Of a DNA stretch of 64,000 bases, positions 2,881 through 23,663 are shown piece by piece. The stretch lies in the NCBI GenBank assembly GCA_964291415.2, contig OZ219920.1, positions 320,001 to 384,000 on the forward strand, written 5' to 3'. Below the pieces are notes generated by a model. It did not search any database. It had not been told where the DNA came from and was given only the letters and a program-made list of their open reading frames with translations. The DNA is from Alphaproteobacteria bacterium. GTDB lineage: Bacteria > Pseudomonadota > Alphaproteobacteria > SP197. The position numbers and the translations under genes were made by a program. Position 1 is the first letter of the stretch, and every line of letters begins with the position of its first letter.

Positions 2881-3151
2881 CCGGCATCCCGCCGTCCGTG
2901 GGTACCTCTCCTGAGGCATCTTTCGCGCTGTGCTGTTTCGTTCGGCACCACATCACGCCAGCCTTGGGTTTCAACATGGTCCTGACCGCACCCCGTCGAG
3001 GGCGGCGATGTCCGGATTGATCTTCGATGTGGCACCTTGCATCGTGGTGATCTGCATCCAGGGCCAGACAACACCTTCGCCTTGATCAACGGCCATCAAA
3101 CGAAACTGCGTCATCCACAGGCACGTTTCATTGAATCGGCAGGGGAAAGTC

Positions 3152-4345
3152 ATGAACCGCAAGCCAGACGTGATGCGGACGTTTCCTGCAGCACAGGGCG
3201 AACAGGTCACGCTCGCCAACTTGCTGTCTGGCCCCTACAACCGTTGGGCGTTCCGCAACATGCGCCGTTTGTTGCCCACGGCGAATGTCTGGCGCGGAAA
3301 TGGCCCGGCACCTGTCCCGCTCGTCGAACCTGTCCATCTGGGTGACGTCGAATTCTTGGACCGGGACGGCGCCCCGCACACCGTCGCGGAGAACATCGTC
3401 GATGGGTATACCGATGGCCTGGTGATACTGCACCGCGGCAAGATCGTGACGGAGTACTATGCCGAAGGCGTTGAGCCGCACGAACCCCATCTTCTCATGT
3501 CCGTGACGAAGTCATTCGCGGGATCACTCGCGGGCATTCTGGTGGAACAGGGCCGGTTGAAGCCGGACGATCGTGTCACGGACATCGTCCCTGAGGTGAA
3601 GGGCTCCGCCTATGACGGAGCGCTCGTGCACCATGTCCTGAACATGACTGTCGGCATCGATTTCGACGATGATTATGACAACCCTGACAGCGACAACGTG
3701 CTTCTTGATGTCGCTTCAGGATGGCGCCCGCCGCGTGACGGTGCACCGGACAATCTTCGTGACTACATCACGACGATGCGACCTGCAGGGGAACACGGTT
3801 CGACCTTTCACTACGTGTCGACCAACACGGACCTTCTTGGATGGATACTCGAGCGGGTCTCAGGCACCGATTTCGCAACGCTTCTCAGCCGGGAAGTCTG
3901 GCAACCCATGGGCGCCGCGCATGACGCTTACGTGACTCTCGACAGGCTCGGCGCTCCCCAGACCGATGGCGGCCTGTGTGTCACCACGAGGGATCTTGCG
4001 CGCTTCGGCCAACTCCACCTGCAGAACGGCATCATGAATGGCCGCCGCATAGTTCCAGAGTGGTGGATTCGGGATTTTCGCGACAACGGCGATGCGGATG
4101 CGTGGGACCGGGGCAGTTTCGCGGACCTCTTTCCGGGTTGCCACTACCGTTACCAATGGTTCACGGACCTGAAGTGTGAACGCCGGCCGTTCTTCGGCAT
4201 CGGCATTCATGGACAGATGCTGTTCGTCGATTCAGTTGCAGGCGTCGTGGGCGCCAGACACTCGAGCCACCCGATGCCGGTGGACGACAAGTATCTCGAC
4301 GACATGGAACGCGCCTTCGGGGCCGTTGCGGATATCCTTCAATAG
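3152..4345 (+). CDS. Serine hydrolase, beta-lactamase/6-aminohexanoate-dimer hydrolase (NylB-like) family
   Basis: HLLMSVTKS (SxxK), FHYVSTNTDLLGW, GIGIHGQ. Confidence 0.88.
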   Translation: MNRKPDVMRTFPAAQGEQVTLANLLSGPYNRWAFRNMRRLLPTANVWRGNGPAPVPLVEPVHLGDVEFLDRDGAPHTVAENIVDGYTDGLVILHRGKIVTEYYAEGVEPHEPHLLMSVTKSFAGSLAGILVEQGRLKPDDRVTDIVPEVKGSAYDGALVHHVLNMTVGIDFDDDYDNPDSDNVLLDVASGWRPPRDGAPDNLRDYITTMRPAGEHGSTFHYVSTNTDLLGWILERVSGTDFATLLSREVWQPMGAAHDAYVTLDRLGAPQTDGGLCVTTRDLARFGQLHLQNGIMNGRRIVPEWWIRDFRDNGDADAWDRGSFADLFPGCHYRYQWFTDLKCERRPFFGIGIHGQMLFVDSVAGVVGARHSSHPMPVDDKYLDDMERAFGAVADILQ

Positions 4346-4391
4346 AAGAGAGCCCGCGGCACCGTTTCCTGATGACACCGCGGTCGATCCT

Positions 4392-4551
4392 CAGAGCAGG
4401 CATGTACATGTCCGCCCGTCTCGCTGTTCCACCACGCCTCGAACGTCCAGGCGCTTGCTGGCAGTCGTGCTTCGATGATCGACTCGATCTCGCGAAACCG
4501 CAGCTTGCACGACTCCCCCTCGATGCCTCGAAGATAGTCTTCAAGCGTTGC
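4392..4551 (-). pseudogene. Remnant of a small conserved domain (DUF7662-like)
   Basis: LEDYLRG..LRFREIESIIEARLPASAW..AWWNS..GHVHA resembles the 'FxEIExIxGxxLPxSA..WWxN' domain by recall; no good start, C-terminus degenerate. Confidence 0.4.
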
Positions 4552-4607
4552 CAACTGCTCAAAGGCAAGAACGCCAGAGGGGCAACTGCCGGGCACAAAG
4601 GTCCGCA

Positions 4608-5099
4608 TCATGACGCCGATGTGAACAAACGCAGATCCCACCAAACCGGCGTTTCCAGCGACACCTCCATGTTCCCGAATTCAGGGTGTCGGCTGTTGAT
4701 GATGACATTGCGTTCCATGCGCGCGACAAGTGACGGAACGAAGAGGATCGCACTGCGCGTTTCCTCGTACCACGCGTTGGCGAAGCTGCGCGAGACCTTG
4801 CAGTCCTGACTGTCCCAACCCGGCAAGGCGTCGGACGTTGCAACCTCGTAGGATGTCCCCCGAGGAATCGTGATCTCCACGAAATGCTGATTGTCCGGGA
4901 CGATGCCGTTCCAATGTGCCAGCTTCTCGAGCATCGCTGTCGAATAGGCTTCGCTGGCGTAAATCACGGCAGCGCCCACCTCATGCCACCGGCCCGCGAC
5001 TCGTCGAGCGCCTTCGGGACTCCAGACGGGAAACCTGCCGTGCGGATCACCAATTCGGTAGGCAGATTTGGTCTTCGGAAGTTGACGAACAGCGGTCAG
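4608..5099 (-). CDS. RES domain toxin (NAD+ phosphorylase/ParT-like)
   Basis: YRIGD..GRWH..IYAS..TAMLE..VPS..ERNVIINSRHPEF; coupled to the antitoxin stop via CTGA overlap. Confidence 0.88.
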   Translation of the reverse strand: MTAVRQLPKTKSAYRIGDPHGRFPVWSPEGARRVAGRWHEVGAAVIYASEAYSTAMLEKLAHWNGIVPDNQHFVEITIPRGTSYEVATSDALPGWDSQDCKVSRSFANAWYEETRSAILFVPSLVARMERNVIINSRHPEFGNMEVSLETPVWWDLRLFTSAS

Positions 5100-5590
5100 G
5101 GTGAGACGCCCGCCTCTGCACGGCGAATGAGATTGAGGACCGCATCCGCGCCAGCCGAACTGGAACACGCCATCTCGAGAGGGGTCTCTCCTGCCAACAG
5201 GGGATGAGGGCGTGTCAGAAATGCCTCGAACCGGTCCCGATCACCCCGGTAGGCTAGGATGACGGCAATCAAAACGCGGCCGATCTCGTAGAGCCGTTCA
5301 CTATGTTGTTTCGACAGCTTGCCGGCTTTCTTCGCGCGTCGGAACGTCGCTTCCGGCACTATCGGGCCTACGATGCGGTTTGTGTTTCCTCCGAACACTT
5401 TGGCCATAGCCGTCACGGCGGATGGGCGGAGGCCACTGGCAACACGCTGTGCCAGACGTACGTCACTGCAGGTACTGGGGTTGGCAACATCAAGAAGCTT
5501 CGCCAACCGCGTCGATTCACTCTCGGTGTGCGAGAGGAAGACGAAGGGTATGTTCTCCGGACTTGTTGTCCGGAGGGCGCCGTTTGGCAT
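5096..5590 (-). CDS. Xre/MbcA/ParS antitoxin of RES toxin
   Basis: IVPEATFRR..LSKQHSERLY..FLTRPHPLLAGETPLEMA..GADAVLNLIRRAEAG; RBS ggag. Confidence 0.88.
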   Translation of the reverse strand: MPNGALRTTSPENIPFVFLSHTESESTRLAKLLDVANPSTCSDVRLAQRVASGLRPSAVTAMAKVFGGNTNRIVGPIVPEATFRRAKKAGKLSKQHSERLYEIGRVLIAVILAYRGDRDRFEAFLTRPHPLLAGETPLEMACSSSAGADAVLNLIRRAEAGVSP

Positions 5591-5919
5591 GGTGCGCTCC
5601 CTGAATGAATCGTCGCATGACGAAACATAGGGGATCAGATGGCGCCCGGCAAGAATAGGATGGAACGAAGTGGCAAAGCCATCGCGTCGCACAGTATCGG
5701 GTGGATCAACCCACCGGAGTCATTCTACCGTACGAGCGGTCACCTGGGTCTCGTCATGCATTCGTCGGCACCACCAGCATGTCGCGGCTGATGGTTGCGA
5801 CAGCCGGACCGTTGACCGTTCCAGCCCGAATGGAAATCCGGCGAAGGTGGCGGACGCGGATGCCGGAAGGGCCGTCGCCTGGCGACATCCCGGTCGCCGG
5901 CTGACGGCCCCCCGAACAA

Positions 5920-5995
5920 TGGCTCCGCGAGCAGGACTCGAACCTGCGACCCAGTGGTTAACAGCCACTTGCTCTACCAACTGAGCTATCGCGGA
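5920..5995 (-). tRNA. tRNA-Asn (GTT)
   Basis: TCCGCGATAGCTCAGTTGGTAGAGC..AGTGG CTGTTAA CCACT..GGTTCGAGTCC..CGCGGAGCCA; 76 nt cloverleaf with encoded CCA. Confidence 0.97.
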
Positions 5996-6116
5996 TCAGG
6001 TTTGACCTGATGTTTATGCCAAGTGCCGGCGAGGGTCAATGTTGACCGCAACCGGATTGCGGCCCCTCGGCAACCCCCGTAGGGTCGGGGACCATCCGTC
6101 TGGGGAGTGTGTCACG

Positions 6117-7754
6117 ATGAATGGCGCCGATCTCATTGCCCGCATCCTGGCCAGGGAAGGTATCGAAATTCTTCCCGCCTTTCCGCACAGCGATCTCATC
6201 GATTCCGCGGCCAAGGTGGGCATCCGGCCCGTGATCGTGCGCCAGGAACGCCAGGCCCTCCACATTGCCGACGGCTATGCCCGCGTCACGGGAGGCCGCA
6301 GGATCGCCTGCACCACCGTGCAGTACGGGCCCGGATCGGAGAACGCCTTCGGAGCCGTCGCCCAGTGCCATGCCGACAACGTGCCCGTGCTCCACATTCC
6401 CTTCGGCTACGACCGCATGAGACAGCCGCTCGATTCCCACTTTCAGGCCAGCCAGAGCATGCAGCATGTCGCCAAGTGGTGCGCCATGGTGCCGGATGTG
6501 GAGCGCATTCCGCAGATGATGCAGAACGCCTTCGCCATGCTGCGCAATGGCCGTCCCGGGCCGGTGGTCCTCGAGGTGCCCAAGGACGTGGCCAACACCG
6601 TTGCCGATCCCGGCCTCGAGGAGAGCTACCGCCCCCAGAAGGCGTCGCGGCCCGTGGCTGCCGATGCCGAGATCCGCGAAGTCCTTGCCTGTCTGAAGAA
6701 GGCCTCGTCGCCTGTCATCGTGGCGGGGCAGGGCATTCTCTACGCCGGAGCATCGCAGGCGCTGACAGAGTTCGCCGAAAGCACCGGCACTCCGGTTCTC
6801 ACGACCCTGAACGGCAAGAGCGCCTTTCCGGAGAACCACCCGCTCTCCCTGGGATGTGCGGGCCGCACGCGGCGCGGCGAAGCGGCTCATTTCCTCGCAA
6901 GCTCCGACCTCATCCTCGGTCTCGGCACAAGCTTCACGAAGTCGGAGTACATCACGCCATTTCCGACGGGCCGCCGCTGCTTCATCCAGCTGACGAACTG
7001 GGAAGGTGACGTGTCCAAGGACTATCCGGTCGACATCGGCATCATCGGCGATGCCCGCGCGACCCTGGAGAGGATGGTGGAGATAGTCGGCAAGGATCCC
7101 GGCGTCCGGCGCGACGCGGTGGCCGACGAGGTGGCAAGCCGCCGCAGGGCCTTCATGGATCTCTGGGAGCCACGGCTGCATTCCGACGAGGTGCCCGTCA
7201 ATCCCTACCGCATCGTTCATGACCTCATGAGAACGGTCGACCGCGAAACGACCATCGTCACCCATGATGCCGGATCGCCGCGCGACCAGATGACGGCCTT
7301 CTACGAGACGCTCGTGCCTCACGGGTACATCGGCTGGGGCAAGACAACGCAGCTCGGTCTCGGCCTCGGCCTTGTCCAGGGCGCCCGGCTGGCGCGGCCT
7401 CATCACCACTGCATCAACGTCATGGGCGATGCGGCGATCGGCATGGTGGGAATGGACCTCGAGACCTCGGTGCGCAACCGCCTCGCCACGGTCACCATCG
7501 TTCTGAAGAACGCGGTCATGGGTGGCTATGTCAACCATCATCCGGTGGCGGCGCGCGATTACGGCATTCATGAACTCGGTGGGGACTATGCCGGTGTGGC
7601 GGCGGCTCTTGGCGCACACGCCGAACGGGTGAGCGCTCCGGCGGATTTCGTGCCGGCTCTCGAACGGGCGCTGGCACTGACCGATCGCCCGGCGCTGATC
7701 GAGGTCGTCAGCTCCGAAGAGAAGCACTTTGCGGACGATCCCGTGGAAGGTTGA
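6117..7754 (+). CDS. Thiamine pyrophosphate-dependent enzyme (acetolactate synthase large-subunit-like)
   Basis: RQER..HIADGY, QYGPG, GRPGPVVLEVPKD, GDAAIGM..VLKN TPP-binding motif. Confidence 0.9.
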   Translation: MNGADLIARILAREGIEILPAFPHSDLIDSAAKVGIRPVIVRQERQALHIADGYARVTGGRRIACTTVQYGPGSENAFGAVAQCHADNVPVLHIPFGYDRMRQPLDSHFQASQSMQHVAKWCAMVPDVERIPQMMQNAFAMLRNGRPGPVVLEVPKDVANTVADPGLEESYRPQKASRPVAADAEIREVLACLKKASSPVIVAGQGILYAGASQALTEFAESTGTPVLTTLNGKSAFPENHPLSLGCAGRTRRGEAAHFLASSDLILGLGTSFTKSEYITPFPTGRRCFIQLTNWEGDVSKDYPVDIGIIGDARATLERMVEIVGKDPGVRRDAVADEVASRRRAFMDLWEPRLHSDEVPVNPYRIVHDLMRTVDRETTIVTHDAGSPRDQMTAFYETLVPHGYIGWGKTTQLGLGLGLVQGARLARPHHHCINVMGDAAIGMVGMDLETSVRNRLATVTIVLKNAVMGGYVNHHPVAARDYGIHELGGDYAGVAAALGAHAERVSAPADFVPALERALALTDRPALIEVVSSEEKHFADDPVEG

Positions 7755-9358
7755 TGACGGCATTTGATTACATCATTGCCGGCGGTGGCACCGCGGGCTC
7801 GGTGCTCGCGGCGCGTCTGACCGAAGATCCGGCGGTCCGCGTTCTCGTGCTCGAAGCCGGCACCGGCAAGAGGTCCCTGATGCACCGCATCCCGGCAGGC
7901 GTCCTGGCTCTCTATCAGTCGGGCCGCTACCACTGGGACTACAGGTCGGAACCCGAAGGACTGGCCGGAGGCAGAACCTATCCCTACAAGATGGGCAAGG
8001 GTCTTGGAGGATCCTCCTCGATCAATGCCCTGCTGTGGGTGAGGGGCGCGCCCGGTGTCTTTGACAGCTGGGCAGAGGACGGCGCCGTCGGTTGGTCCTG
8101 GCGGGATGTCGAGCCGTTGTTCCGGCGCATCGAGACCTTCGACGATGCCGACGATCCCCACATGGGGCAATCGGGTCCCATCGCCGTCGCGCGCGGCAAT
8201 CCCCGATCCTCGATGTTCAACGAGGCCTTTCTCGAGGCGGGAGTCGAGGCCGGTCTGGCCTTCAACGGCAACTACAACGGCCCGGATCAGGAAGGGATCG
8301 CCGTCCTGCACCGCAACACGCGCGGTGGCGAGAGGAGCGACGTTTGGACCGAGTATCTCAAGCCCTGCCTCAGCCGGCCCAATCTTGTCATCCGCTGCGA
8401 TACCCCTGTCGATCGTCTCGTCATCGATGGGGGCCGGGTTACCGGCGTTGCTGTCAGAAGGGGCGGACGCCAGGAGGTCATTCAAGCGGCGAGGGAAGTC
8501 CTGCTCTGTGCCGGCGCGATCGCTTCGCCGCAGCTGCTCATGCTGTCGGGGATCGGTGATCCCGATGCACTCGCGCCGCACGGAATCGAGGTACGCCACG
8601 AGCTTCCGGGCGTTGGCGCCAACCTCCACACCCACCCGACCATCCGCTGCGGCTACACCGCCACGAAAGCGGAGAGACTGGCCTCGTGGACAAGGCCACC
8701 CAAGAAGTGGCTGGCAGGTGCGCGATGGCTTGCCGACCGCAAGGGTGTCGCCTCCACCAACCACATGGACGTCGGCTGCTTCCTGCGATCCGGCGCCGAT
8801 GCCCCCTGGCCCGATATCCAGATGACCTTCACGCCCATGCTGGTGGGCATGACCTATGATGATGCGCTGACGGACGGTTTCGGGGTCTACACGGAACTCG
8901 TCGGCATCAAGAGTCGTGGAACCGTAAGGTTGCGTTCGGCCGACCCGCAGGCCCTGCCGCGGTTCGGTTTCAACTTTCTTGCCGAAGAGCGCGACCGCGA
9001 AACGTTCCGTGCCGGCGTCGGCGTGATCCGCGACATCGTCTCGCAGCCGGCATTCGACGGGCTGCGGGGGCGCGAGATCGGGCCTGGCGCGAGCGTGACG
9101 TCACCGAGCGACCTCGACCGGTGGGTGAGCGGGAACATCGGCATAACCCACCACCTCGCCGGCACCTGCCGCATGGGTGCTCCCGGTGATCCGCGCTCAG
9201 TCGTCGGCCCCGATCTGAGGTTCCTGGGTCTCGACGGTCTTCGCATTGCCGACAACTCGATCATGCCCTGTGTCACCAGCGGCAACACCCACGCCCCGGC
9301 CATCATGATTGGCGAAAAGGCGAGCGACCTCATCACCGGCGAGCGCAACGTTCCATGA
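7754..9358 (+). CDS. GMC family oxidoreductase (choline dehydrogenase-like)
   Basis: DYIIAGGGTAG, GKGLGGSSSIN, SPQLLMLSGIG, HHLAGTCRMG, GNTHAPAIMIGEK. Confidence 0.93.
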   Translation: MTAFDYIIAGGGTAGSVLAARLTEDPAVRVLVLEAGTGKRSLMHRIPAGVLALYQSGRYHWDYRSEPEGLAGGRTYPYKMGKGLGGSSSINALLWVRGAPGVFDSWAEDGAVGWSWRDVEPLFRRIETFDDADDPHMGQSGPIAVARGNPRSSMFNEAFLEAGVEAGLAFNGNYNGPDQEGIAVLHRNTRGGERSDVWTEYLKPCLSRPNLVIRCDTPVDRLVIDGGRVTGVAVRRGGRQEVIQAAREVLLCAGAIASPQLLMLSGIGDPDALAPHGIEVRHELPGVGANLHTHPTIRCGYTATKAERLASWTRPPKKWLAGARWLADRKGVASTNHMDVGCFLRSGADAPWPDIQMTFTPMLVGMTYDDALTDGFGVYTELVGIKSRGTVRLRSADPQALPRFGFNFLAEERDRETFRAGVGVIRDIVSQPAFDGLRGREIGPGASVTSPSDLDRWVSGNIGITHHLAGTCRMGAPGDPRSVVGPDLRFLGLDGLRIADNSIMPCVTSGNTHAPAIMIGEKASDLITGERNVP

Positions 9359-17347: not shown

Positions 17348-17878
17348 ATGGTCATGACACGCTGCAAGACCCTGAGTGCCGTCCTGGTCGTGTTCAGCCT
17401 CGCTGTGGGCGGTCACGCTGCGGCGGAGATGCAGACATCGGTCAACATCACTCCTCAGGGGGTGGCGATCGGCGGCTGGGACACCGTTGCCTACTTCACG
17501 GAGAATCGCGCCGTCATGGGATCGGCGGAATTCTCACACGACTGGCAGGGAGCCACCTGGCATTTTGCCTCGGCTGCCAACCGCGACCTCTTCGCGGGCG
17601 ATCCCGAAGCCTACGCCCCGCAGTTCGGCGGCTGGTGTGCCTATGCCCTGACGCAGGGCGAGTACGCGGCAGAGGTCGACCCCCAACAGGCCTGGACCGT
17701 TCACGAGAACCAGCTGTTCCTCAACTGGAATGCCAAGATTCGCAAGAAATGGGTCAACAATGGCATCGAGGACGGTGTGACCGTCGGCCGCGAGAACTGG
17801 GTTGAGGTCGAGCAGCAGATCCTCGACGGCGAAGCGGAGTATTCGCGCAAGGGGAATTCCCCGTGGAACGATTTGTAA
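17348..17878 (+). CDS. Exported YHS-domain (seleno)protein family member, Cys form
   Basis: Signal peptide; AIGGWDTVAYF..WHFASAANRDLF..YAPQFGGWCAY. Confidence 0.85.
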   Translation: MVMTRCKTLSAVLVVFSLAVGGHAAAEMQTSVNITPQGVAIGGWDTVAYFTENRAVMGSAEFSHDWQGATWHFASAANRDLFAGDPEAYAPQFGGWCAYALTQGEYAAEVDPQQAWTVHENQLFLNWNAKIRKKWVNNGIEDGVTVGRENWVEVEQQILDGEAEYSRKGNSPWNDL

Positions 17879-17888
17879 TCATCGCGCC

Positions 17889-18629
17889 ATGACGACGCCT
17901 CGCGTCCTCGTCTTCCAGCATATCGCCATCGAACATCCCGGCGTATTCCGGGACTTCCTTGCGGAGGACGGAATCCCCTGGACTGCCGTTGAGCTCGACG
18001 AGGGGGCGGCGATTCCGGACCTCTCGGACTTCGACGTGCTGTGGGTCATGGGTGGTCCCATGGACGTCTGGCAGGACGATCTCCACCCCTGGCTCGAACC
18101 CGAGAGGCAGGCCATTCGCGAGGCCGTTGTGTCGCGCAGGATGCCGTTCCTGGGCTTCTGCCTGGGTCATCAGCTCCTGGCCCAGGCGCTCGGCGGCGAG
18201 GTGGGACCGGCTGCCGAGCCGGAAATCGGCATCCTCGAGGTGGAGCTTGAACCGGCCGGCATCGCAAGTCCCCTCTTCGCGGGCCTCCCGGCGGTTCATC
18301 GCACCCTGCAGTGGCATGGCGCGGAAGTCCTCGACGTTCCGCCCGAAACGCAGGTGCTGGCGAAGTCCGGCGCCTGTGCAACGCAGTCGCTCGGGTACGG
18401 CGATCACGCCTTCAGTATCCAGTACCACATCGAGATCACGTCCGAGACGGTGAGCCAATGGGCCAGGGTGCCGGAATACAAGCGCGCCCTCGAGGACAAC
18501 CTCGGCTCCGGAGCCCTGCCCCGGCTCGAGACCGAGGCGGCGGCCGCGATGGCCGAGTTCAACGCGAGCGCCCGCATCGTCTACGACAACTTCATGGGCA
18601 TGGTCCGCAGCCGCCTGCAGGCTCCGTGA
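17889..18629 (+). CDS. Type 1 glutamine amidotransferase-like protein
   Basis: VFQH..EHPG, MGGPMDV, LGFCLGHQLLA, QWHG, QYHIE. Confidence 0.9.
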   Translation: MTTPRVLVFQHIAIEHPGVFRDFLAEDGIPWTAVELDEGAAIPDLSDFDVLWVMGGPMDVWQDDLHPWLEPERQAIREAVVSRRMPFLGFCLGHQLLAQALGGEVGPAAEPEIGILEVELEPAGIASPLFAGLPAVHRTLQWHGAEVLDVPPETQVLAKSGACATQSLGYGDHAFSIQYHIEITSETVSQWARVPEYKRALEDNLGSGALPRLETEAAAAMAEFNASARIVYDNFMGMVRSRLQAP

Positions 18630-18761
18630 ATCCCTGCTTCGCGCCGCCCTGCCACTGGCAACTGGATAGGGCATGACCCAGGGTTGATCAGACGTGATCG
18701 ATGAAGCCGGACCGGTCACGTTGCCAGGTCGGTCAGACCGCCTGTGTCTTCCCGGGGGTGG

Positions 18762-19190
18762 TCAGAGCAATCCGGCCGGGATGGCGAAGGCATCTCGCGT
18801 AAGTCTGGTTCCGGTTTCCTTCAGGCAAACCACGGCTCCCGTTCCGAGTGGCCTGCCCAGCCTGGTCAGGGTCGAGAGGTTCCTCGCGGCGGCGAGTCCC
18901 GGGGATGCCGTCTTCTTGAACTCGAAGGGATGAATTCTGTTGTCGCGCTCGACCAGCAGATCCACTTCCCGGTTGTCCCGGTCCCGGTAGAAGCGAACAG
19001 CGGCGTGCAATCCGCCATGCCAGTAGCTCTTGAGAATCTCGGCGAACATCCAGGTCTCCAGGATGGCGCCGGACATCGCACCGGTCACCGCGTTGATCAC
19101 CAGTCGCCCGGACGTTTCTCAAGCACCCATGTCCAAGCATCGACATTTCCGCGAGGCGTGCCTGACGAAGACTCCCGTGCTGTACGGCCT
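18762..19190 (-). pseudogene. 3' remnant of AAA_14/DUF4143 ATP-binding protein
   Basis: GAMSGAILETW..EILKSY..FYRDRDNREVDLLVE..PFEFKKTASP; upstream degenerate RPYS..CLDMGA* with a stop; no ATPase domain. Confidence 0.75.
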
Positions 19191-19245
19191 GCCGCTGCGC
19201 ATCGATCGCCAGCGAGGCCGGGAGTGCCCCGAAGTCGCCGGGAAT

Positions 19246-19959
19246 TCAGCCCGCAATGGTGCGCAGGCGGGCGATCTGGCTTTCCACCGAGATACCCTCC
19301 TGCGAGGTGATTTCCAGTTTCTTGTCCTGGAAGGTGTCTCCGGGATGAGCCTGCCTCCATTCCTCGACGACCCTGTCGCGTTCGCGCACCAGGTCCTTCA
19401 CCAGCGGTCGAAACAGGCGCAGCATGCCGGTGATCCAGCGGTTGACGGGCCAGGATGGCCGGGCGTGATCGATCACGAAGTCGTCGACCATCTCGCAGAC
19501 ATCGTCGGCCGCATACCAGGCTTCTCCCGTGACCCACCGATTGACGGTGAAGAGGCCTATGGCGAATCCCTTGGAATCCATCGAGATGGCGATGAGGTGA
19601 CTGAGCGCGTCGTTGCCCGTCGGCCACTCCGCTTCGCCGTCGTAGGCCACCGGAACGACGCCCGGCTTCATGCCCTTGGTGCGCATGAAGGTGTGAAAGT
19701 GGCCGTGTTCTCCAGGCCTCTGTGCCTTGGGATGGGCATGGTAGTAGTACTGGCTGTGGCTCGTGCGGTCGAAGACATCGCCCTTGGGATAGTGCCGCCA
19801 CTGGTAGAACGTGCCGGCGTCCCGCAGCAGTTCGCCAACGATGTTGTCATTGGTCCGGCGCAGGACGCGATGGCATTCGAGAACGTCGTTGCCTGCCGCG
19901 ATCATCGCCTCGAGTTCGTCATGCGGGAGATCTTCAAGGCGGGTCCGTTCTGTCGTCAT
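19246..19959 (-). CDS. His-motif hypothetical protein (DUF6969-like by recall)
   Basis: 237 aa; HYPKGDV, QYYYHAH, EHGHFHTF, SHLIAISMD, LFTVNRWVTGE; begins 34 bp after the FGE gene. Confidence 0.75.
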   Translation of the reverse strand: MTTERTRLEDLPHDELEAMIAAGNDVLECHRVLRRTNDNIVGELLRDAGTFYQWRHYPKGDVFDRTSHSQYYYHAHPKAQRPGEHGHFHTFMRTKGMKPGVVPVAYDGEAEWPTGNDALSHLIAISMDSKGFAIGLFTVNRWVTGEAWYAADDVCEMVDDFVIDHARPSWPVNRWITGMLRLFRPLVKDLVRERDRVVEEWRQAHPGDTFQDKKLEITSQEGISVESQIARLRTIAG

Positions 19960-19993
19960 GGCGAGCCCTCTCGGGTGGATGTCCGGGCCATGG

Positions 19994-20875
19994 TCAGTCG
20001 TCTTCCAGGGCGAGTCTGAAGCCGATGAGGATGTGGCGGATGTCCTCGGGCCGGCCGTGCCGGTCAGCCGGGCGGCAGACACCGCAACCGCGATCATCCC
20101 AGGAACCACCCTTGACCCAGTATCGCCCGGGGCGCTGCTCATCGGCGGTCCACTCGAACACCTGTCCGGCGGCATCCAGCATGCCGAAGGGACTCGTCCC
20201 TTCCGGAAACGAGCCCACCGGCATCGTCGAGAAGGGGCCGCGGTCATGGGTGTTGAGTTTCGTGGCGTCCCACGCGTTGCCCCAGGGGAACATCCGGCCA
20301 TCCGTGCCGCGTGCGGCCTTCTCCCACTCGAGCGCCGTCGGCAGGCGCCACAGGCGCCCTGTTTCCCCGGACATCCAGCGGGCATAGGCCATCGCGTCGG
20401 CATGGCTCACGAGAACAACCGGATGGTCGAGCCTGTCGGCCGGTGGTACGCCATCAGTCCAGGCATAGGGCCGTGTGCGGCGGTAGGGATGGATCAGTCC
20501 ATAGCCGTCCCAGGTCTCATTGTCGACGTCGGGCGCGGCGTGGCCCGTGGCCTCGACAAACAGGGCGTAGTCGGCCTGGGTGACGAGGTTCTTCATGATG
20601 AAGAAGGTGCCAAGCTCGACGACGTGACGATCCATGTCATCGTCATACCAGCCCCATTGCCTGGTCCGCGAATGACCATAGGCTTCCTCGTCGAGACGAT
20701 AGGCCCATTCCCTCTCATCCGCGTCGGACCCGGCGATGAAGGATCCCCCGTCGATCCTGACGACCTCGGGGTGAGGCGTATCGTCTGCCGCGGATGAAGC
20801 GTACTGCGACAGAACAAGGAGAGTGACGCAGAGAAACGTGCGCAAGGGACCAGGAACCTTCCTGACAACACCCAT
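19994..20875 (-). CDS. Exported formylglycine-generating enzyme (FGE/SUMF1) family protein
   Basis: Signal peptide; [61 protein letters not shown]. Confidence 0.88.
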
Positions 20876-21019
20876 AGTGGACCGCATACCATGGGAGCGC
20901 CACAGCGTCATTTCCAGCTTACCATCCTGCCGGGATCAGGGTATCATGGTGGTTTACGTGCGGTGCGCTCCATGAGCGCACTCCCTTCAAGATCTCGAAA
21001 CCGGAGGGTCTCTAACTCC

Positions 21020-21931
21020 ATGGGCAAGCTGAGAAGGAAACTGTTGACGACCACCATGATTCCGGCGGTCGTTGGTCTCGGGAGCGTCATGGCATTCGAT
21101 GCGTCGGCCTGCATGTGCCAGCGCAAGGCGGCTGCCAAGGCCTACACCATGGCCCTCGAAAACCCGGAGGCCGTGGCAGATCCCGCAACGGGCCTGGCTG
21201 CCGGCTGTGATGCCTGCGGCGGCTGTGGAGCGGGCTGCGGCGCTTGCGGTGGCTGTGGTGCCTGTGGAGCGGGCTGTGGAGCCTGCGGCGGTTGCGGAGC
21301 CTGCGGAGCGGGCTGCGGGGCCTGCGGCGGTTGTGGAGCCTGCGGAGCGGGCTGCGGGGTCTGCAATCCCTGCGCGGCCGAGTGCGAGGAGGATCCGTGC
21401 AATCCGTGTGCGGTCTGCGAGGATCCGTGCGGCGCCAGCCTTGAGACGGCGACGGGCCTGGCTGCCGGCTGCGGAGCCTGCGGCGGCTGTGGTGCCTGTG
21501 GAGCGGGCTGCGGAGCTTGCGGCGGCTGTGGTGCCTGTGGAGCGGGCTGTGGAGCCTGCGGCGGTTGCGGAGCCTGCGGAGCGGGCTGCGGGGTCTGCAA
21601 TCCCTGCGCGGCCGAGTGCGAGGAGGATCCGTGCAATCCGTGTGCGGTCTGCGAGGATCCGTGTGGCGCCAGCCTTTGGCAGCCCGATGACGAAACCAGG
21701 GTTGCCTGGAGTGTCCTGACGGGCGAGCCGAGCGCTGCCTATGTTGCCGGACTGCTGCCCCAGGGTGATGTGCCGGCGATGCTTGACGGGAACGTGGAGC
21801 ATGTTGCCGGACTGGCCGACGAGGGCATCGGTGCGGTTGGCACGGGCGCCACAGGTTCTGGCTCACGGTTCGTTCCGGACGATGCGGCGTCCGACATCGG
21901 CTACTGGCGTTACACACTGCTGGTGTCCTGA
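21020..21931 (+). CDS. Exported Cys/Gly/Ala-rich repeat protein (~45 Cys)
   Basis: RBS ggagg; LRRKLL + hydrophobic stretch + ASA cleavage site; repeats vary at third codon positions, as expected for this frame being coding. Confidence 0.8.
21188..21676 (+). repeat. Nested repeat: two cassettes (21188-21442, 21452-21676), each with three 39-bp CGACGGCGACGAG units plus a CNPC block
   Basis: Seen directly in DNA and in translation. Confidence 0.92.
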
Positions 21932-21945
21932 TTACCGGGCGCTCC

Positions 21946-22446
21946 GTGCCTGGTGGTGACAGACTCCGTCGTCGCGGCCACGCCGCTGGATACCATGACA
22001 AGGGCCGGATCGGCATCGCTGCCGGCTCGGCCCTTGTCGTTCTTGTGCTCTTCATGGCGCTGGGCCGTGCCGGAGACGGGACGTTGGCAGCCGACAGCGC
22101 CTGGGCGCTGGCTGGCGGTGATTCCCTTCTCGTCATCGACGTGAGAACCGTCCGCGAATGGCGGACCACCGGTCTGCCGGAAAAGGCGGTGGGCATCAGC
22201 CTTGCCGGTCAAGGTGTTGCCTCCTTTGTCGACGCGGTGCTTGAAGCGGTTGACGGCGACCGCTCGCATCCCCTTGCGACGATATGCGCCTCCGGTGTGC
22301 GTTCGGCTCGGGCAGCCGATATCCTGCAGCGTCACGGGTTTGTGGACGTTTACGACATTGCCGAGGGCATGATGGGGAACGGGCACGGCCCAGGCTGGAT
22401 CGGACGCGGACTGCCGCTTCGTGCCATGGACGGCAGCGATTCATGA
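21946..22446 (+). CDS. Rhodanese-like domain protein with N-terminal hydrophobic segment (start uncertain)
   Basis: LVIDVRTVREW, ICASGVRS active-site loop, GFVDVYDIAEGM..GW..GLP. Confidence 0.85.
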   Translation: MPGGDRLRRRGHAAGYHDKGRIGIAAGSALVVLVLFMALGRAGDGTLAADSAWALAGGDSLLVIDVRTVREWRTTGLPEKAVGISLAGQGVASFVDAVLEAVDGDRSHPLATICASGVRSARAADILQRHGFVDVYDIAEGMMGNGHGPGWIGRGLPLRAMDGSDS

Positions 22447-22523
22447 TCACGTCTCCCGCTGCCTCCCTTCATACTCCATGTCCGCACCTGTTCACTGACT
22501 GAATTCAAGAGAGGAGAATCAGT

Positions 22524-23663
22524 ATGTTTCGCAAGTCCAAAGCCACGCGTCTCGTGGACGACCTTGTTGGCGGTGAGATGTCCAGGCGGGAGTTTCACCG
22601 CACCCTCGCTGCCACAGGCATCGGTCTCGGCGGGACAACCCTGCCATTGTCCGGGGCTTCGGCGAACACCGATCCCGCGGCGCTCAGCGTCTTCGAGTGG
22701 GCGGGGTACGAACTGCCCGAGTTCTATCCGGGATACACCGAAAAGCACGGTGTCCCTCCGACATTCACGCTCTTCGCCGAAGAGGAAGAAGCCCTTCAGA
22801 AGCTGCGCTCCGGGTTCCCGTCGGACATCTCGCATCCGTGCAGCGGTTCGGTGGCGCGCTGGAGGGACGCGGGCGCATTGCGTCCGCTCGATATCGCTCG
22901 CATCGAGGCCTGGGACGACATCTTCCCGACCACCAAGGAGATCCGTGGCGTCAAGATCGAGGACGAGTACTATTTCCTGCCCTGGGACTGGGGGAACAGT
23001 TCCATTCTCTACAGGCCCGACCTGCTTCCGCTCGGCGAGGACGAACAGTCCTACGACGTCCTGCTGAGGCCGGAGTTGCAGGGCAAGATCGCGATGTTCG
23101 ATTCGGTCGACTCGACCTTCGCGGTCGGTGGTCTCCTGACCGGGGCTGAGAACATCTTCGCGATGACAGACGACGAAATCGAAGCCGCCGCCGAAGTTGT
23201 CCGTGCCCTTCACCACAACATGAGGTTCTACTGGTCGTCTCCAACCGAGTTCGAGCAATCCATGGCCGCAGGGGAAGTGGTGGCAGCATGGTCGTGGAAC
23301 AGTTCGATCATCGAGATGAAGAACCAGGACATCGAGGTCGTCTTCATGAATCCCAAGGAGGGGATCATGACCTGGATCTGCGGATTCACGGTCATGTCGA
23401 GCGGCGAGTCGGTAGATGACCTCATATACGACTACCTCAACGCCGCCATGGAACCGCGCGTCGGCAAATACCTCATCGAGGCTTATGGTTACGGTCACTC
23501 GAACGAGCACACCTATGGTCTGGTGGCCCAGGACGTGCTCGAAGCCCTCGGTATCGTCGACCCTGTCGCGCTCATGGCCCAGGGCAACTTCTACGATGAG
23601 ATCCCTGCCGATATCCGGGAAAAGATGATCGTCAAGTTCGACGAGATCAAAGCCGGTTTCTGA
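22524..23663 (+). CDS. PotD/PotF-like ABC substrate-binding protein, Tat-exported
   Basis: SRREF twin-arginine motif; WAGYE, PWDWGNSSILYR, PKEG; strong RBS aggag. Confidence 0.88.
   Translation: MFRKSKATRLVDDLVGGEMSRREFHRTLAATGIGLGGTTLPLSGASANTDPAALSVFEWAGYELPEFYPGYTEKHGVPPTFTLFAEEEEALQKLRSGFPSDISHPCSGSVARWRDAGALRPLDIARIEAWDDIFPTTKEIRGVKIEDEYYFLPWDWGNSSILYRPDLLPLGEDEQSYDVLLRPELQGKIAMFDSVDSTFAVGGLLTGAENIFAMTDDEIEAAAEVVRALHHNMRFYWSSPTEFEQSMAAGEVVAAWSWNSSIIEMKNQDIEVVFMNPKEGIMTWICGFTVMSSGESVDDLIYDYLNAAMEPRVGKYLIEAYGYGHSNEHTYGLVAQDVLEALGIVDPVALMAQGNFYDEIPADIREKMIVKFDEIKAGF

What the first reader, a model, noticed from the sequence alone, without database searches (positions are those of the whole stretch)
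19246..22446. Candidate undescribed system: Cys-repeat exported protein with FGE-family enzyme, His-motif protein and rhodanese
Seen: two divergent gene pairs share a ~145-bp intergenic region. Leftward are an exported FGE/SUMF1-family protein (C-terminal GCGVCR) and, 34 bp later, a protein with YYYHAH/EHGHFH metal-ligand-like motifs. Rightward are the ~45-Cys protein and a membrane-anchored rhodanese (CASGVR loop). Known: FGE converts Cys to formylglycine in sulfatases, other family members are non-heme/Cu oxidative enzymes, and rhodaneses transfer sulfane sulfur. No sulfatase is encoded in this window. Inference: the four genes form an extracytoplasmic Cys-modification module, such as RiPP-like maturation of a metal-binding protein, persulfide/sulfur storage, or metal detoxification.
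Basis: partly seen in the sequence, partly recalled or inferred. Interest (0 to 1): 0.82.

Follow-up and report, generated by a model that had tools for sequence, protein, structure and literature searches.

The report
Secreted poly-cysteine protein with conserved partner enzymes
A secreted protein built almost entirely of cysteine repeats sits in a widely conserved but undescribed gene cassette with a remodelled formylglycine-enzyme relative, a histidine-rich protein of unknown fold and a rhodanese, most likely to bind or process copper-like metals or reactive sulfur outside the cytoplasm.

Summary
All four genes are real: DUF6969 (19246-19959, -), an exported FGE-family protein (19994-20911, -), a 303-aa, 45-Cys secreted protein (21020-21931, +) and a membrane-anchored rhodanese (21946-22446, +).

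The Cys frame is under purifying selection. All 13 differences between its two internal repeats fall on third codon positions, and every length variant is in frame.

Of 60 DUF6969 loci with full flanks from Alpha-, Beta- and Gammaproteobacteria, 36 carry this FGE clade, 38 a secreted Cys-repeat ORF and 32 both. The background rate is 1 such ORF in 59,846 in the host genome.

New findings:
- The Cys-repeat proteins form a large unnamed family, usually fused to c-type haem domains (cytochrome P460-like or SoxA/TsdA-like). The window's copy keeps only a remnant.
- The FGE clade has lost one catalytic Cys and carries an invariant CxxC. In Arenicellales it is fused to a multihaem cytochrome.
- DUF6969 has no signal peptide and no known fold.
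- The FGE-like protein is probably not the sulfatase maturase, because the genome's Cys-type sulfatases lack signal peptides.

Function is inferred only. My best guess is a periplasmic thiolate ladder for Cu(I)-like metals, with a sulfur-carrier role as the close rival. No literature was found.

The parts
19246..19959 (-). DUF6969 protein, 237 aa, His-rich (H56, H74, H76, H85, H87, H89, H121 conserved), no signal peptide
   Evidence: Pfam PF22308, E 7e-84. Conserved columns. AF2 model pLDDT 88.5. No PDB fold match: Foldseek best E 0.33 and VIA best Z 3.3.
19994..20911 (-). Exported FGE-family protein, 305 aa, with the clade signature [15 protein letters not shown][PA]A. Alternative starts lie at 20887 and 20875.
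   Evidence: Pfam PF03781, E 2e-40. Both Cys of the CxxC are present in 52 of 52 clade members. Aligned with three canonical FGEs, the first catalytic Cys is deleted and the second is retained.
20919..20947 (+). Promoter-like TTACCA-17-TATCAT upstream of the Cys gene
   Evidence: Consensus scan found 1 site against 0.4 expected. TATCATG is invariant in 9 of 9 aligned genus intergenic regions. This is a consensus match only.
20962..20982 (+). Inverted repeat (GTGCGC...GCGCAC) in the presumed 5' leader of the Cys gene
   Evidence: Conserved in most genus orthologues and deleted in L032. The RNA fold is no better than shuffles, z -0.40. There is no Rfam match.
21020..21931 (+). Secreted Cys-ladder protein, 303 aa, 45 Cys
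   Evidence: No Pfam or NCBIfam family. AF2 mean pLDDT is 33, so the protein is predicted disordered.
21020..21109 (+). Signal peptide [30 protein letters not shown]
   Evidence: Read from the sequence. It is invariant in 7 of 7 genus orthologues. The related motif LKxKLLSTTVIP recurs in distant alphaproteobacterial homologues.
21185..21676 (+). Two repeat modules (aa 56-141 and 142-219). Each is a CxxC ladder (GCGACGGCGAC...) ending in [27 protein letters not shown].
   Evidence: TRF finds period 234, 1.9 copies, 93% matches at 21233-21676. Module number is 2-4 in the 7 genus orthologues aligned; a further copy (L028) with about one module and 15 Cys was seen.
21677..21928 (+). C-terminal tail ending WRYTLLVS. 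It is probably a remnant of a cytochrome P460-like domain and has no CxxCH.
   Evidence: Full-length relatives carry PF16694 and CxxCH at this position. The pairwise match to that domain is only weak, E 0.012. The genome has no P460 hit.
21946..22446 (+). Single-domain rhodanese with an N-terminal membrane anchor and active-site loop CASGVRS
   Evidence: Pfam PF00581, E 6e-8. It starts 14 bp after the Cys gene. A homologue lies beside the Cys gene in 12 of 19 relatives and in 12 of 80 wider loci.

Best explanation
The cassette is built around a Sec-exported, intrinsically disordered poly-cysteine protein, which I call a Cys ladder.

**Proposed mechanism**
- After export, the ladder's thiolates bind a thiophilic ligand in the periplasm. 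Cu(I) or a similar soft metal is the most likely ligand. The ladder would act like a secreted metallothionein or bufferin.
- The neighbouring periplasmic FGE-derived protein has an invariant CxxC in place of FGE's copper-binding Cx4C pair. It would act on or with the ladder's cysteines as an O2- and electron-dependent oxidase. It is fed by c-type cytochromes, which are fused to it in Arenicellales, encoded next door in many Alphaproteobacteria, and built into most ladder proteins as P460-like or SoxA/TsdA-like haem domains.
- The periplasm-facing rhodanese is an optional helper that supplies or removes sulfane sulfur, or keeps thiols reduced.
- DUF6969 is a cytoplasmic His-rich metalloprotein. 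It would serve the same pathway on the inside, either handling the precursor before export or handling the ligand.

**Shown**
- The genes are real and the Cys frame is selected.
- Gene linkage holds across three classes.
- Haem-domain fusions occur in the ladder family.
- The FGE active-site loop is remodelled.
- The localisation signals are present.

**Inferred**
- Metal binding.
- Any catalytic action on the ladder.
- The role of DUF6969.
For: **Linkage**
- DUF6969 relatives were found at 585 of 599 candidate stretches in species-representative genomes, and the best 80 loci were analysed.
- Of 60 loci with full flanks, 36 have the FGE clade, 38 a Cys-repeat ORF, 32 both and 18 neither.
- The same Cys-repeat criterion picks 1 of 59,846 ORFs in the host genome, which is the finding itself.
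- Five same-genus genomes without DUF6969 also gave no hit to the Cys protein. In G002 the conserved flanks lie about 490 bp apart.
- More distant DUF6969 genes also sit beside secreted Cys-repeat peptides. Examples are Skermanella (NPCAAK repeats), Ciceribacter (APCAAA repeats) and a Burkholderia plasmid (KCAP repeats).

**Metal reading**
- The ladder is made of CxxC units and is predicted disordered, pLDDT 33.
- FGE is a copper enzyme that uses two Cys (passages in bioRxiv 10.1101/2021.05.21.445229).
- The clade keeps an invariant CxxC in 52 of 52 members.
- Neighbouring genes include a bufferin DUF2282 gene plus an MNIO enzyme in 2 of 80 loci, HMA plus a Cu-type P-type ATPase in 1, and thioredoxin plus DsbD/CcdA in 4 and again in Burkholderia.
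- ECF sigma and anti-sigma pairs lie beside DUF6969 in Skermanella and Burkholderia.
- The copper-chelating bufferin family is reported to include Buf1|Cytochrom_C|FGE-sulfatase fusions and repeat precursors with up to 58 Cys (PMC12452194, passages).

**Electron supply**
- L081 encodes a multihaem cytochrome fused to the FGE domain. L070 and L097 encode the multihaem cytochrome alone at the same position.
- A class I cytochrome c gene is present in 34 of 80 loci.

**Weak hint of transcription**
- Contigs of one RNA library cover parts of all four genes at about 95-98% likeness. DNA carry-over is not excluded.
Against: - No experiment or metal-binding prediction supports chelation.
- Direct copper genes are rare near the cassette (3 of 80 loci). 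Sulfur-related neighbours are about as frequent: rhodanese 12 of 80, SoxA/TsdA-type haem domain in at least 6 of 80, and YeeE/YedE in 3 of 80 plus Rhizobiaceae.
- An exported ladder of CxxC units would be expected to form disulfides in an oxidising periplasm unless it is kept reduced.
- DUF6969 also occurs without any Cys-repeat ORF in 22 of 60 full-flank loci: the 18 with neither partner (for example Azospirillum) and the 4 with the FGE gene only. Five such genomes have no NPCAAxNPC-coding DNA. DUF6969 is therefore not dedicated to the ladder.
- G023 has a 63-Cys ladder-P460 protein and DUF6969 but no FGE-family hit. The FGE-like enzyme is therefore not essential.
- Loci are phylogenetically related, so the counts overstate independence.
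- In the window's genus the haem domain is lost, so the cytochrome part of the model does not apply directly here.
Confidence: 0.4

Rival explanations
1. Sulfur carrier. The ladder cysteines carry sulfane sulfur or thiosulfonate, as persulfides, polysulfide bridges or Cys-S-thiosulfonate, much like the SoxY swinging arm. They would be loaded by the rhodanese or by the built-in SoxA/TsdA-like haem domain. DUF6969 would process imported thiosulfate or persulfide in the cytoplasm.
For: - The rhodanese is co-operonic with the ladder gene in the window and lies beside it in 12 of 19 relatives and 12 of 80 wider loci.
- Ladder proteins of Beta- and Gammaproteobacteria embed a SoxA/TsdA cytochrome domain above Pfam's cut-off: L070 43 bits and L068 30 bits against a cut-off of 27.
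- YeeE/YedE (Sulf_transp) lies next to DUF6969 in L070, L113 and L114. It also does so in Sinorhizobium, in the order sulfurtransferase, YeeE, DUF6969, and in Ciceribacter thiooxidans.
- Carriers include the sulfur-oxidiser genus Sulfuritalea.
Against: - It explains neither the FGE-like enzyme nor the bufferin, CopA and ECF-sigma neighbours.
- Rhodanese and YeeE are each in a minority of loci.
- The P460-type domain has no known sulfur role (recalled).
- There is no homology to SoxY or SoxZ.
Confidence: 0.25
2. Covalent tailoring is the point, which is the first reader's RiPP-like reading. The FGE-like oxidase converts ladder cysteines, especially the first Cys of C-x-P-C, to formylglycine or to a thioaldehyde-derived product. 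The modified residues, not free thiols, would carry the function.
For: - C-N-P-C matches the first three positions of FGE's C-x-P-x-R motif (motif as quoted).
- The share of PC motifs preceded by Cxx is higher where the FGE gene is present: median 0.56 in 34 loci against 0.08 in 8 loci.
- The clade keeps the Cys that aligns with canonical FGE's second catalytic Cys and the following R-P-A-x-R-H.
- Fusion to a multihaem cytochrome fits an oxidase that needs electrons.
Against: - The canonical Cx4C pair and the motif Arg at +4 are absent.
- Many repeats (AKNPCAAK, CGAC) have no C-x-P.
- G023 has CNPC repeats but no FGE gene.
- The FGE-positive and FGE-negative groups are not phylogenetically independent.
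- FGE-domain proteins can be non-enzymatic, as Tsi3 is.
Confidence: 0.15
3. Sacrificial redox buffer. The ladder thiols, wired to a haem domain, scavenge oxidants or NO in the periplasm and are re-reduced through DsbD/thioredoxin.
For: - Ladder proteins carry P460-like or SoxA/TsdA-like haem domains.
- Thioredoxin plus DsbD/CcdA lies next to the cluster in 4 of 80 loci and in Burkholderia.
- A universal stress protein gene lies upstream in Thalassospira-type loci.
Against: - It gives no role to the FGE-like enzyme, DUF6969 or the rhodanese.
- The window's own protein has no haem site.
- Thioredoxin/DsbD linkage is seen in a minority of loci.
Confidence: 0.1
4. Coincidental neighbours. The FGE-like gene is simply the genome's sulfatase-maturing enzyme.
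For: The genome has six sulfatase-family genes, five of them with a Cys-type CxPxR motif. It has no anaerobic sulfatase-maturing enzyme. This gene is its only full-length FGE-domain gene.
Against: - None of the six sulfatases shows a signal peptide, whereas the FGE-like protein does (and the sequence).
- Same-genus genomes G003, G005, G007, G015 and G016 have 5-11 sulfatase hits but no full FGE domain.
- Canonical FGEs in relatives sit beside sulfatases and score 233-272 bits against Pfam. This clade scores about 138 bits, sits beside DUF6969 and lacks the first catalytic Cys.
Confidence: 0.05
5. The Cys ORF is an untranslated artefact of GC-rich tandem-repeat DNA.
For: Long ORFs are open in several frames over the repeat.
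Against: - Third-position bias: 13 of 13 repeat differences fall on third codon positions.
- Synonymous changes exceed non-synonymous changes in all six orthologue comparisons.
- All length variants are in frame.
- The RBS and signal peptide are conserved.
- Homologues carry haem domains in the same frame.
Confidence: 0.01

Closest known systems
Bufferins and oxazolins (MNIO-modified, Sec-exported, copper-chelating Cys peptides and proteins)
   Same: - Signal-peptide-bearing Cys-rich precursors, some with many repeats (up to 58 Cys).
- Periplasmic destination.
- Occasional fusion to Cytochrom_C and FGE-sulfatase domains (PMC12452194, passages).
- A bufferin cluster lies directly beside the DUF6969/Cys-repeat genes in L070 and L093.
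   Different: - No MNIO or DUF2063 partner lies in the cassette. The genome's only MNIO gene is about 46 kb away.
- The ladder protein matches no bufferin or other Pfam/NCBIfam family.
- The partners are DUF6969 and a stand-alone FGE-like protein.
- No thiooxazole or other modification is known.
Formylglycine-generating enzyme (FGE/SUMF1)
   Same: - FGE-sulfatase fold.
- It works in the export compartment on an unfolded Cys-bearing client, as eukaryotic FGE does (recalled).
- It retains the Cys aligning with the second catalytic Cys and the RPAxRH stretch.
   Different: - The first catalytic Cys is deleted and a new Cys lies three residues downstream, giving CxxC instead of Cx4C.
- It has clade-specific insertions and lacks long loops of canonical FGE.
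- It has no sulfatase neighbour and no exported sulfatase client.
Metallothioneins and copper storage proteins (Csp)
   Same: Very high Cys content with CxxC spacing. The protein is disordered without ligand, as metallothioneins are (the metallothionein property is recalled).
   Different: The ladder protein is exported by a Sec-type signal, far larger and repetitive, and linked to haem domains and dedicated enzymes. It shows no sequence similarity to these proteins, and Csp is a folded four-helix bundle (recalled).
SoxYZ carrier with SoxAX, and TsdA
   Same: Flexible Gly/Ala-flanked Cys next to a SoxA/TsdA-type cytochrome domain in the Beta- and Gammaproteobacterial ladder proteins. A rhodanese and YeeE are neighbours.
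   Different: There is no homology to SoxY or SoxZ. The ladder has dozens of Cys rather than one. The SoxA equivalog score is far below its cut-off, 36 against 110 bits. The window's protein has no haem domain.
Cytochrome P460 / c'-beta family
   Same: Alphaproteobacterial ladder proteins end in a P460-like domain with CxxCH.
   Different: The domain is divergent: 2 of 4 tested reach Pfam's cut-off. It is preceded by 8-160 Cys in repeats. In the window it is reduced to a tail without CxxCH.
Tsi3-type FGE-like proteins (T6SS immunity)
   Same: An FGE-domain protein that has left sulfatase maturation (passages).
   Different: Tsi3 lacks both catalytic Cys and works by binding a toxin. This clade keeps an invariant Cys pair and has no effector neighbour.

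Membership tests
Canonical FGE (sulfatase-maturing) | FGE-sulfatase domain | tested here: met
   PF03781, E 2.4e-40, 139 bits, covering profile positions 3-254 of 255.
Canonical FGE (sulfatase-maturing) | Two active-site cysteines (Cx4C) that hold copper | tested here: not met
   Three canonical FGEs from relatives, each next to a Cys-type sulfatase where flanks were read, show GGSFLCAxNYC. The clade shows GGSW--DDxGCGxC. The first Cys is deleted, the second is retained, and a new Cys lies at +3. The clade pair is invariant in 52 of 52.
Canonical FGE (sulfatase-maturing) | A CxPxR sulfatase client in the same compartment or neighbourhood | tested here: not met
   The six sulfatase genes all lie outside the window and none shows a signal peptide. 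Genus genomes with sulfatases but no FGE domain exist.
Canonical FGE (sulfatase-maturing) | Cys-to-formylglycine activity | not testable with these tools
   This needs enzyme assays and mass spectrometry.
Bufferin/oxazolin MNIO RiPP systems | Cys-bearing precursor with a Sec signal peptide | tested here: met
   Signal-peptide-like N-terminus and 45 Cys.
Bufferin/oxazolin MNIO RiPP systems | Adjacent MNIO (PF05114) enzyme with a DUF2063 partner | tested here: not met
   None of the four genes matches. The only PF05114 gene of the genome is at C4:293200-293997, about 46 kb from the cassette.
Bufferin/oxazolin MNIO RiPP systems | Precursor signature (DUF2282, BUF_6/12Cys or EGKCG repeats) | tested here: not met
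   The ladder protein has no Pfam or NCBIfam hit. Its repeats are CxxC and NPC, not EGKCG.
DUF6969 (PF22308) | Match to the family profile over its full length | tested here: met
   E 7.3e-84, profile positions 2-199 of 201.
Cytochrome P460 | P460 domain with a CxxCH haem site | tested here: not met
   The window protein has no PF16694 hit and no CxxCH. It has only a weak pairwise match to relatives' domain, E 0.012. Relatives L023 and L021 do meet the feature.
Rhodanese sulfurtransferase | Rhodanese domain with an active-site Cys loop | tested here: met
   PF00581, 33.5 bits against a cut-off of 22.2. The loop is CASGVRS. That this six-residue loop type marks sulfurtransferases is recalled, and activity was not tested.
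Metallothionein | Metal-thiolate cluster formation | not testable with these tools
   Only composition and predicted disorder are available.

The most novel reading that the evidence does not exclude
This would be a second, MNIO-independent pathway to exported poly-cysteine chelators.
- DUF6969 would be a new cytoplasmic His-rich metalloenzyme with a new fold. It would act on Cys-repeat precursors before Sec export.
- The remodelled CxxC FGE clade would be a cytochrome-fed periplasmic cysteine oxidase that finishes or recycles them.
- The Cys-ladder-haem fusion proteins would be a new class of periplasmic metal or sulfur redox proteins spread through Alpha-, Beta- and Gammaproteobacteria.
Probability: 0.2. 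Interest if true: 0.88.

Novelty: new variant of a known kind. Interest (0 to 1): 0.78.

Why it matters
- It would define a large, so far unnamed family of secreted proteins carrying 8-160 cysteines. Many of them are fused to haem domains.
- It would give a first functional context to DUF6969, which has 5,666 hits at E <= 0.001 in the protein search and 0 papers in the library searched.
- It would show a new direction of evolution for the formylglycine-generating enzyme fold: a remodelled copper site with a fused multihaem cytochrome.
- Together with the bufferins, it suggests that Gram-negative bacteria use several independent enzyme sets to equip the periplasm with cysteine-based chelators or carriers. 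That bears on copper tolerance, sulfur cycling and host association.
- Contigs 90-99% alike were laid from two runs labelled sponge metagenome.
- Culturable carriers such as Thalassospira, Skermanella and Ciceribacter make it directly testable.

Tried and rejected
- **Complex prediction.** FGE-like residues 44-305 with ladder residues 96-150 gave no answer, score 0.02. This is not evidence either way.
- **DUF6969 fold.** Foldseek against PDB found nothing at E <= 0.001. VIA-align wide found nothing at Z >= 5. The ESM Atlas returned only DUF6969 clusters.
- **Ladder protein structure.** AF2 gave no fold, pLDDT 33.
- **NCBIfam.** No family reached its cut-off for any of the four proteins.
- **RNA elements.** Rfam gave no match in 18500-22800. 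The leader hairpin folds no better than shuffles.
- **Distant-homologue scan.** Alignment A2 was too diverse for the search for related loci, so A1 was used.
- **Literature.** Searches for DUF6969, for 'cytochrome P460' with 'cysteine-rich' and for four repeat-motif strings found nothing. The ToxD/toxoflavin search gave nothing on the biochemistry of the best PDB sequence hit, 7spq.
- **Lipoprotein reading** of FDASAC was considered and dropped, because relatives have PCGR at that position with no lipobox.
- **Ferredoxin-like CxxCxxCxxxC spacing** was noticed but dismissed for a Sec-exported disordered protein.
- **RNA cover.** Parts of the stretch had no contig in the RNA run (bins around 20904-21191 and 21336-21479). 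No conclusion is drawn.
- **Supplementary tables** of PMC12452194 could not be seen. They may list the Buf1|Cytochrom_C|FGE fusion proteins and their neighbours.

Full report
**1. What is in the window**

The region 19246-22446 holds four genes in two divergent pairs.

- **DUF6969, 19246-19959 (-).** It matches Pfam DUF6969 over its whole length (E 7e-84). It contains the motifs YYYHAH and EHGHFH and has no hydrophobic N-terminus.
- **FGE-family protein, 19994-20911 (-),** 34 bp upstream of DUF6969. It matches the FGE-sulfatase domain (E 2e-40). It has a signal-peptide-like N-terminus, and its C-terminus reads [13 protein letters not shown].
- **Cys-rich gene, 21020-21931 (+).** It encodes 303 aa with 45 Cys. 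It opens with a signal peptide and is preceded by a conserved GGAGG.
- **Rhodanese, 21946-22446 (+),** 14 bp downstream of the Cys gene (PF00581). It has one N-terminal hydrophobic segment and the loop CASGVRS.

NCBIfam places none of the four in a named family.

**2. The Cys ORF is a real gene**

- The repeat DNA has period 234 bp, 1.9 copies and 93% matches. It opens several frames, but only the Cys frame behaves as coding.
- All 13 differences between the two internal copies are at third codon positions.
- Against six genus orthologues, synonymous codon changes outnumber non-synonymous ones (58-84 against 11-56).
- Seven aligned orthologues keep every Cys, the signal peptide and the C-terminus while the module number varies from 2 to 4.
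- Length variants in public contigs change the length by net multiples of three.
- AF2 predicts no fold (mean pLDDT 33). That fits a protein that is disordered without a ligand.

**3. Linkage test**

*Close relatives.* DUF6969 is in 15 of 22 other genomes of the genus. In 19 relatives' loci, the FGE gene lies next to it in 16. A Cys-repeat gene also lies in 16, and the rhodanese in 12.

*Wider sample.* DUF6969 relatives were confirmed at 585 of 599 candidate stretches in one-genome-per-species contigs. The best 80 loci came from Alpha-, Beta- and Gammaproteobacteria. I called an ORF a Cys-repeat ORF if it had at least 3 NPC motifs or at least 8 small-residue CxxC motifs.

| Set of loci | n | FGE clade | Cys-repeat ORF | Both | FGE only | Cys-repeat only | Neither | Rhodanese |
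|---|---|---|---|---|---|---|---|---|
| All | 80 | 51 | 45 | 37 | 14 | 8 | 21 | 12 |
| Full flanks | 60 | 36 | 38 | 32 | 4 | 6 | 18 | 9 |

The same criterion picks 1 of 59,846 ORFs in the 4.44-Mb host genome, which is the finding itself. The loci are related to each other, so these are not independent trials. The enrichment is nevertheless far beyond chance.

*Presence and absence within the genus.* Five genus genomes that lack DUF6969 gave no hit to the Cys protein. In G002 the conserved flanks lie about 490 bp apart. G005 carries a deletion that runs into the next gene. The block therefore behaves as an accessory cassette.

*More distant DUF6969 genes.* These again sit beside secreted Cys-repeat peptides with different repeat units:
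- NPCAAK in Skermanella.
- APCAAA in Ciceribacter thiooxidans.
- KCAP on a Burkholderia plasmid.

**4. The Cys-ladder family**

- Relatives carry 8 to about 160 Cys. The repeat units seen are CNPC, CGAC, CDAC, CGPC and NPCAAK.
- In Alphaproteobacteria most end in a cytochrome P460-like domain with CxxCH. Four were tested against Pfam, and two reach the cut-off.
- In Beta- and Gammaproteobacteria the repeats flank a SoxA/TsdA-type cytochrome domain.
- Short stand-alone peptides are also common.
- The window's protein ends in WRYTLLVS, where relatives have DWRYTLV inside the P460 domain. It has no CxxCH, and the pairwise match is weak (E 0.012). I read the tail as a probable remnant.
- The database search found 24 homologues. 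None has a name beyond 'hypothetical protein'.

**5. The FGE clade**

- All 52 members, from 51 loci plus the window, share [15 protein letters not shown][PA]A with both Cys invariant.
- Signal-peptide-like N-termini were visible in 37 of 51. The remainder were cut off by my extraction window.
- I aligned the clade with three canonical FGEs from related genomes. Two of these sit directly beside Cys-type sulfatases.
  - The clade lacks the first catalytic Cys through a two-residue deletion.
  - It keeps the Cys aligned with the second catalytic Cys and the following RPAxRH.
  - It has a new Cys three residues on, giving CxxC in place of Cx4C.
- In Arenicellales the FGE domain is fused to a multihaem cytochrome c. 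In Betaproteobacteria that cytochrome stands alone in the same position.
- A class I cytochrome c gene is present in 34 of 80 loci.
- The best solved sequence relatives are ToxD and CalU17, not FGE.

**6. Is it the sulfatase maturase?**

The case for: the genome has six sulfatase-family genes, five with CxPxR. It has no anaerobic maturase and no other full FGE domain.

The case against:
- None of the six sulfatases shows a signal peptide, whereas the FGE-like protein does.
- Five genus genomes have 5-11 sulfatase hits without any full FGE domain.
- Canonical FGEs in relatives score much higher against Pfam and sit beside sulfatases.

I rate this rival at 0.05.

**7. DUF6969**

- The AF2 model is confident (pLDDT 88.5, pTM 0.90), but no solved structure resembles it.
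- Seven His and several acidic residues are invariant or nearly so among close relatives. H74, H87 and H89 stay invariant among distant ones.
- The family is large: 5,666 hits and 983 cluster representatives. The literature search returned 0 papers.
- Some members have an N-terminal membrane anchor. Others have a coiled coil, a transmembrane segment and an SH3 domain after DUF6969.
- DUF6969 also occurs without either partner, for example behind an Mla-type operon in Azospirillum. Five such genomes lack NPCAAxNPC-coding DNA. It is therefore not restricted to the ladder system.

**8. What the neighbours say about function**

Metal-related neighbours:
- A bufferin precursor and MNIO enzyme lie directly after DUF6969 in L070 and L093.
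- HMA plus a copper-type P-type ATPase lie upstream in L064.
- Thioredoxin plus DsbD/CcdA occur in four loci and in Burkholderia.
- ECF sigma and anti-sigma pairs occur in Skermanella and Burkholderia.
- A YHS-domain protein is a neighbour in the window's own lineage.
- The MNIO survey (PMC12452194, passages read) reports copper-chelating bufferins with signal peptides. It also reports repeat precursors with up to 58 Cys and rare Buf1|Cytochrom_C|FGE-sulfatase fusions. That is the same triad of Cys peptide, cytochrome and FGE domain.

Sulfur-related neighbours:
- The rhodanese.
- The SoxA/TsdA-type domain.
- YeeE/YedE beside DUF6969 in L070, L113 and L114, in Sinorhizobium (with a sulfurtransferase) and in Ciceribacter.

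The two themes are about equally frequent. Neither is proven.

**9. Mechanism and odds**

- **Best explanation (0.4).** The exported ladder presents thiolates that bind Cu(I)-like metals. The FGE-derived CxxC protein, supplied with electrons by c-type cytochromes, acts oxidatively on or with these cysteines. The rhodanese is an optional helper. DUF6969 works on the cytoplasmic side.
- **Rivals.** Sulfur carrier (0.25). Function resides in covalently modified residues made by the FGE-like enzyme (0.15). Sacrificial redox buffer (0.1). Plain sulfatase maturase (0.05). Artefact (0.01).
- **What is shown.** Gene reality, selection on the Cys frame, linkage, domain fusions, active-site remodelling and localisation signals.
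- **What is inferred.** Ligand identity, catalysis and the role of DUF6969.

**10. Expression**

One run labelled as a sponge metatranscriptome holds contigs about 95-98% alike. They cover parts of DUF6969, the FGE gene, the 3' part of the ladder gene and the rhodanese. DNA carry-over cannot be excluded, so this is only a weak hint of transcription in a close relative.

**11. Novelty**

None of the literature searches turned up a description of the repeats, of DUF6969 or of this FGE clade. The kind of system, secreted Cys-rich proteins with dedicated enzymes, is known from the bufferins. The enzyme set and the haem-fused ladders are different. I therefore file it as a new variant of a known kind. 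I put the chance that it is a mechanistically new maturation pathway at 0.2.

Noticed in passing
window 17348-17878 (+) and 17889-18629 (+): An exported YHS-domain protein (PF04945, just under the cut-off) with a GGWC motif, followed by a class I glutamine amidotransferase. Both are syntenic with the cassette in the genus. The YHS gene is also near it in L044, L046, L048 and L049.
   Followed up: partly
window 18762-19100 (-): A truncated DUF4143 fragment, the C-terminal part of an ATPase-associated domain, lies between the flank and the cassette. Together with the cassette's absence from 7 of 22 genus genomes, it suggests past insertion or deletion activity at this site.
   Followed up: partly
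host genome C1:632758, C4:1559395, C4:1534600, C2:261241, C4:170839: Five Cys-type (CxPxR) sulfatases have no signal peptide. The genome has no canonical FGE and no anaerobic sulfatase-maturing enzyme. How these sulfatases acquire formylglycine is unexplained.
   Followed up: partly
host genome C4:293200-293997: An MNIO (MbnB/TglH/ChrH family) gene lies about 46 kb from the cassette. The same genome may therefore also have a bufferin-type system.
   Followed up: no
L095:6987-7841; L029 (G018) 3460-6430; L024 (G011) 6027-6855: The FGE gene of L095 has two in-frame stops. The very long ladder genes of L029 and L024 are split by frame changes inside the repeats. These could be assembly errors in repeats, pseudogenes or length and phase variation.
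   Followed up: no
L070:8722-9171 and eight other loci: A conserved secreted protein of about 149 aa with no Pfam family follows DUF6969 in 9 of 80 loci (Beta, Gamma and a few Alpha). It is often followed by a DUF302 gene.
   Followed up: partly
L132 (Burkholderia glumae plasmid) 2035-9021: A KCAP-repeat secreted peptide and a DUF6969 homologue sit inside a cluster annotated for arsenosugar biosynthesis (ArsS, two glycosyltransferases). Thioredoxin, CcdA and an ECF sigma/anti-sigma pair lie upstream.
   Followed up: partly
L130 (Sinorhizobium meliloti pSymB-type replicon) 4389-7579: A distant DUF6969 homologue (36% identity) closes an apparent operon of sulfurtransferase, YeeE/YedE and DUF6969, with no Cys-repeat ORF nearby. 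DUF6969 hits lie in 105 Sinorhizobium plasmid records; only a few neighbourhoods were inspected. The species is a tractable model for DUF6969 alone.
   Followed up: partly
ladder proteins of L021, L022, L023, L035, L051, L080, L114 and the window: The signal peptides of alphaproteobacterial ladder-P460 proteins share an unusually conserved motif (LKxKLLSTTVIPxVVGxG) across families. This hints at recognition by a specific partner.
   Followed up: no
loci L054-L119 (24 of 80): A DUF2336 gene lies next to DUF6969 in 24 of 80 loci, often with a class I cytochrome c gene. This holds also where the FGE gene and the ladder are absent. It may be an older conserved neighbourhood of DUF6969.
   Followed up: no
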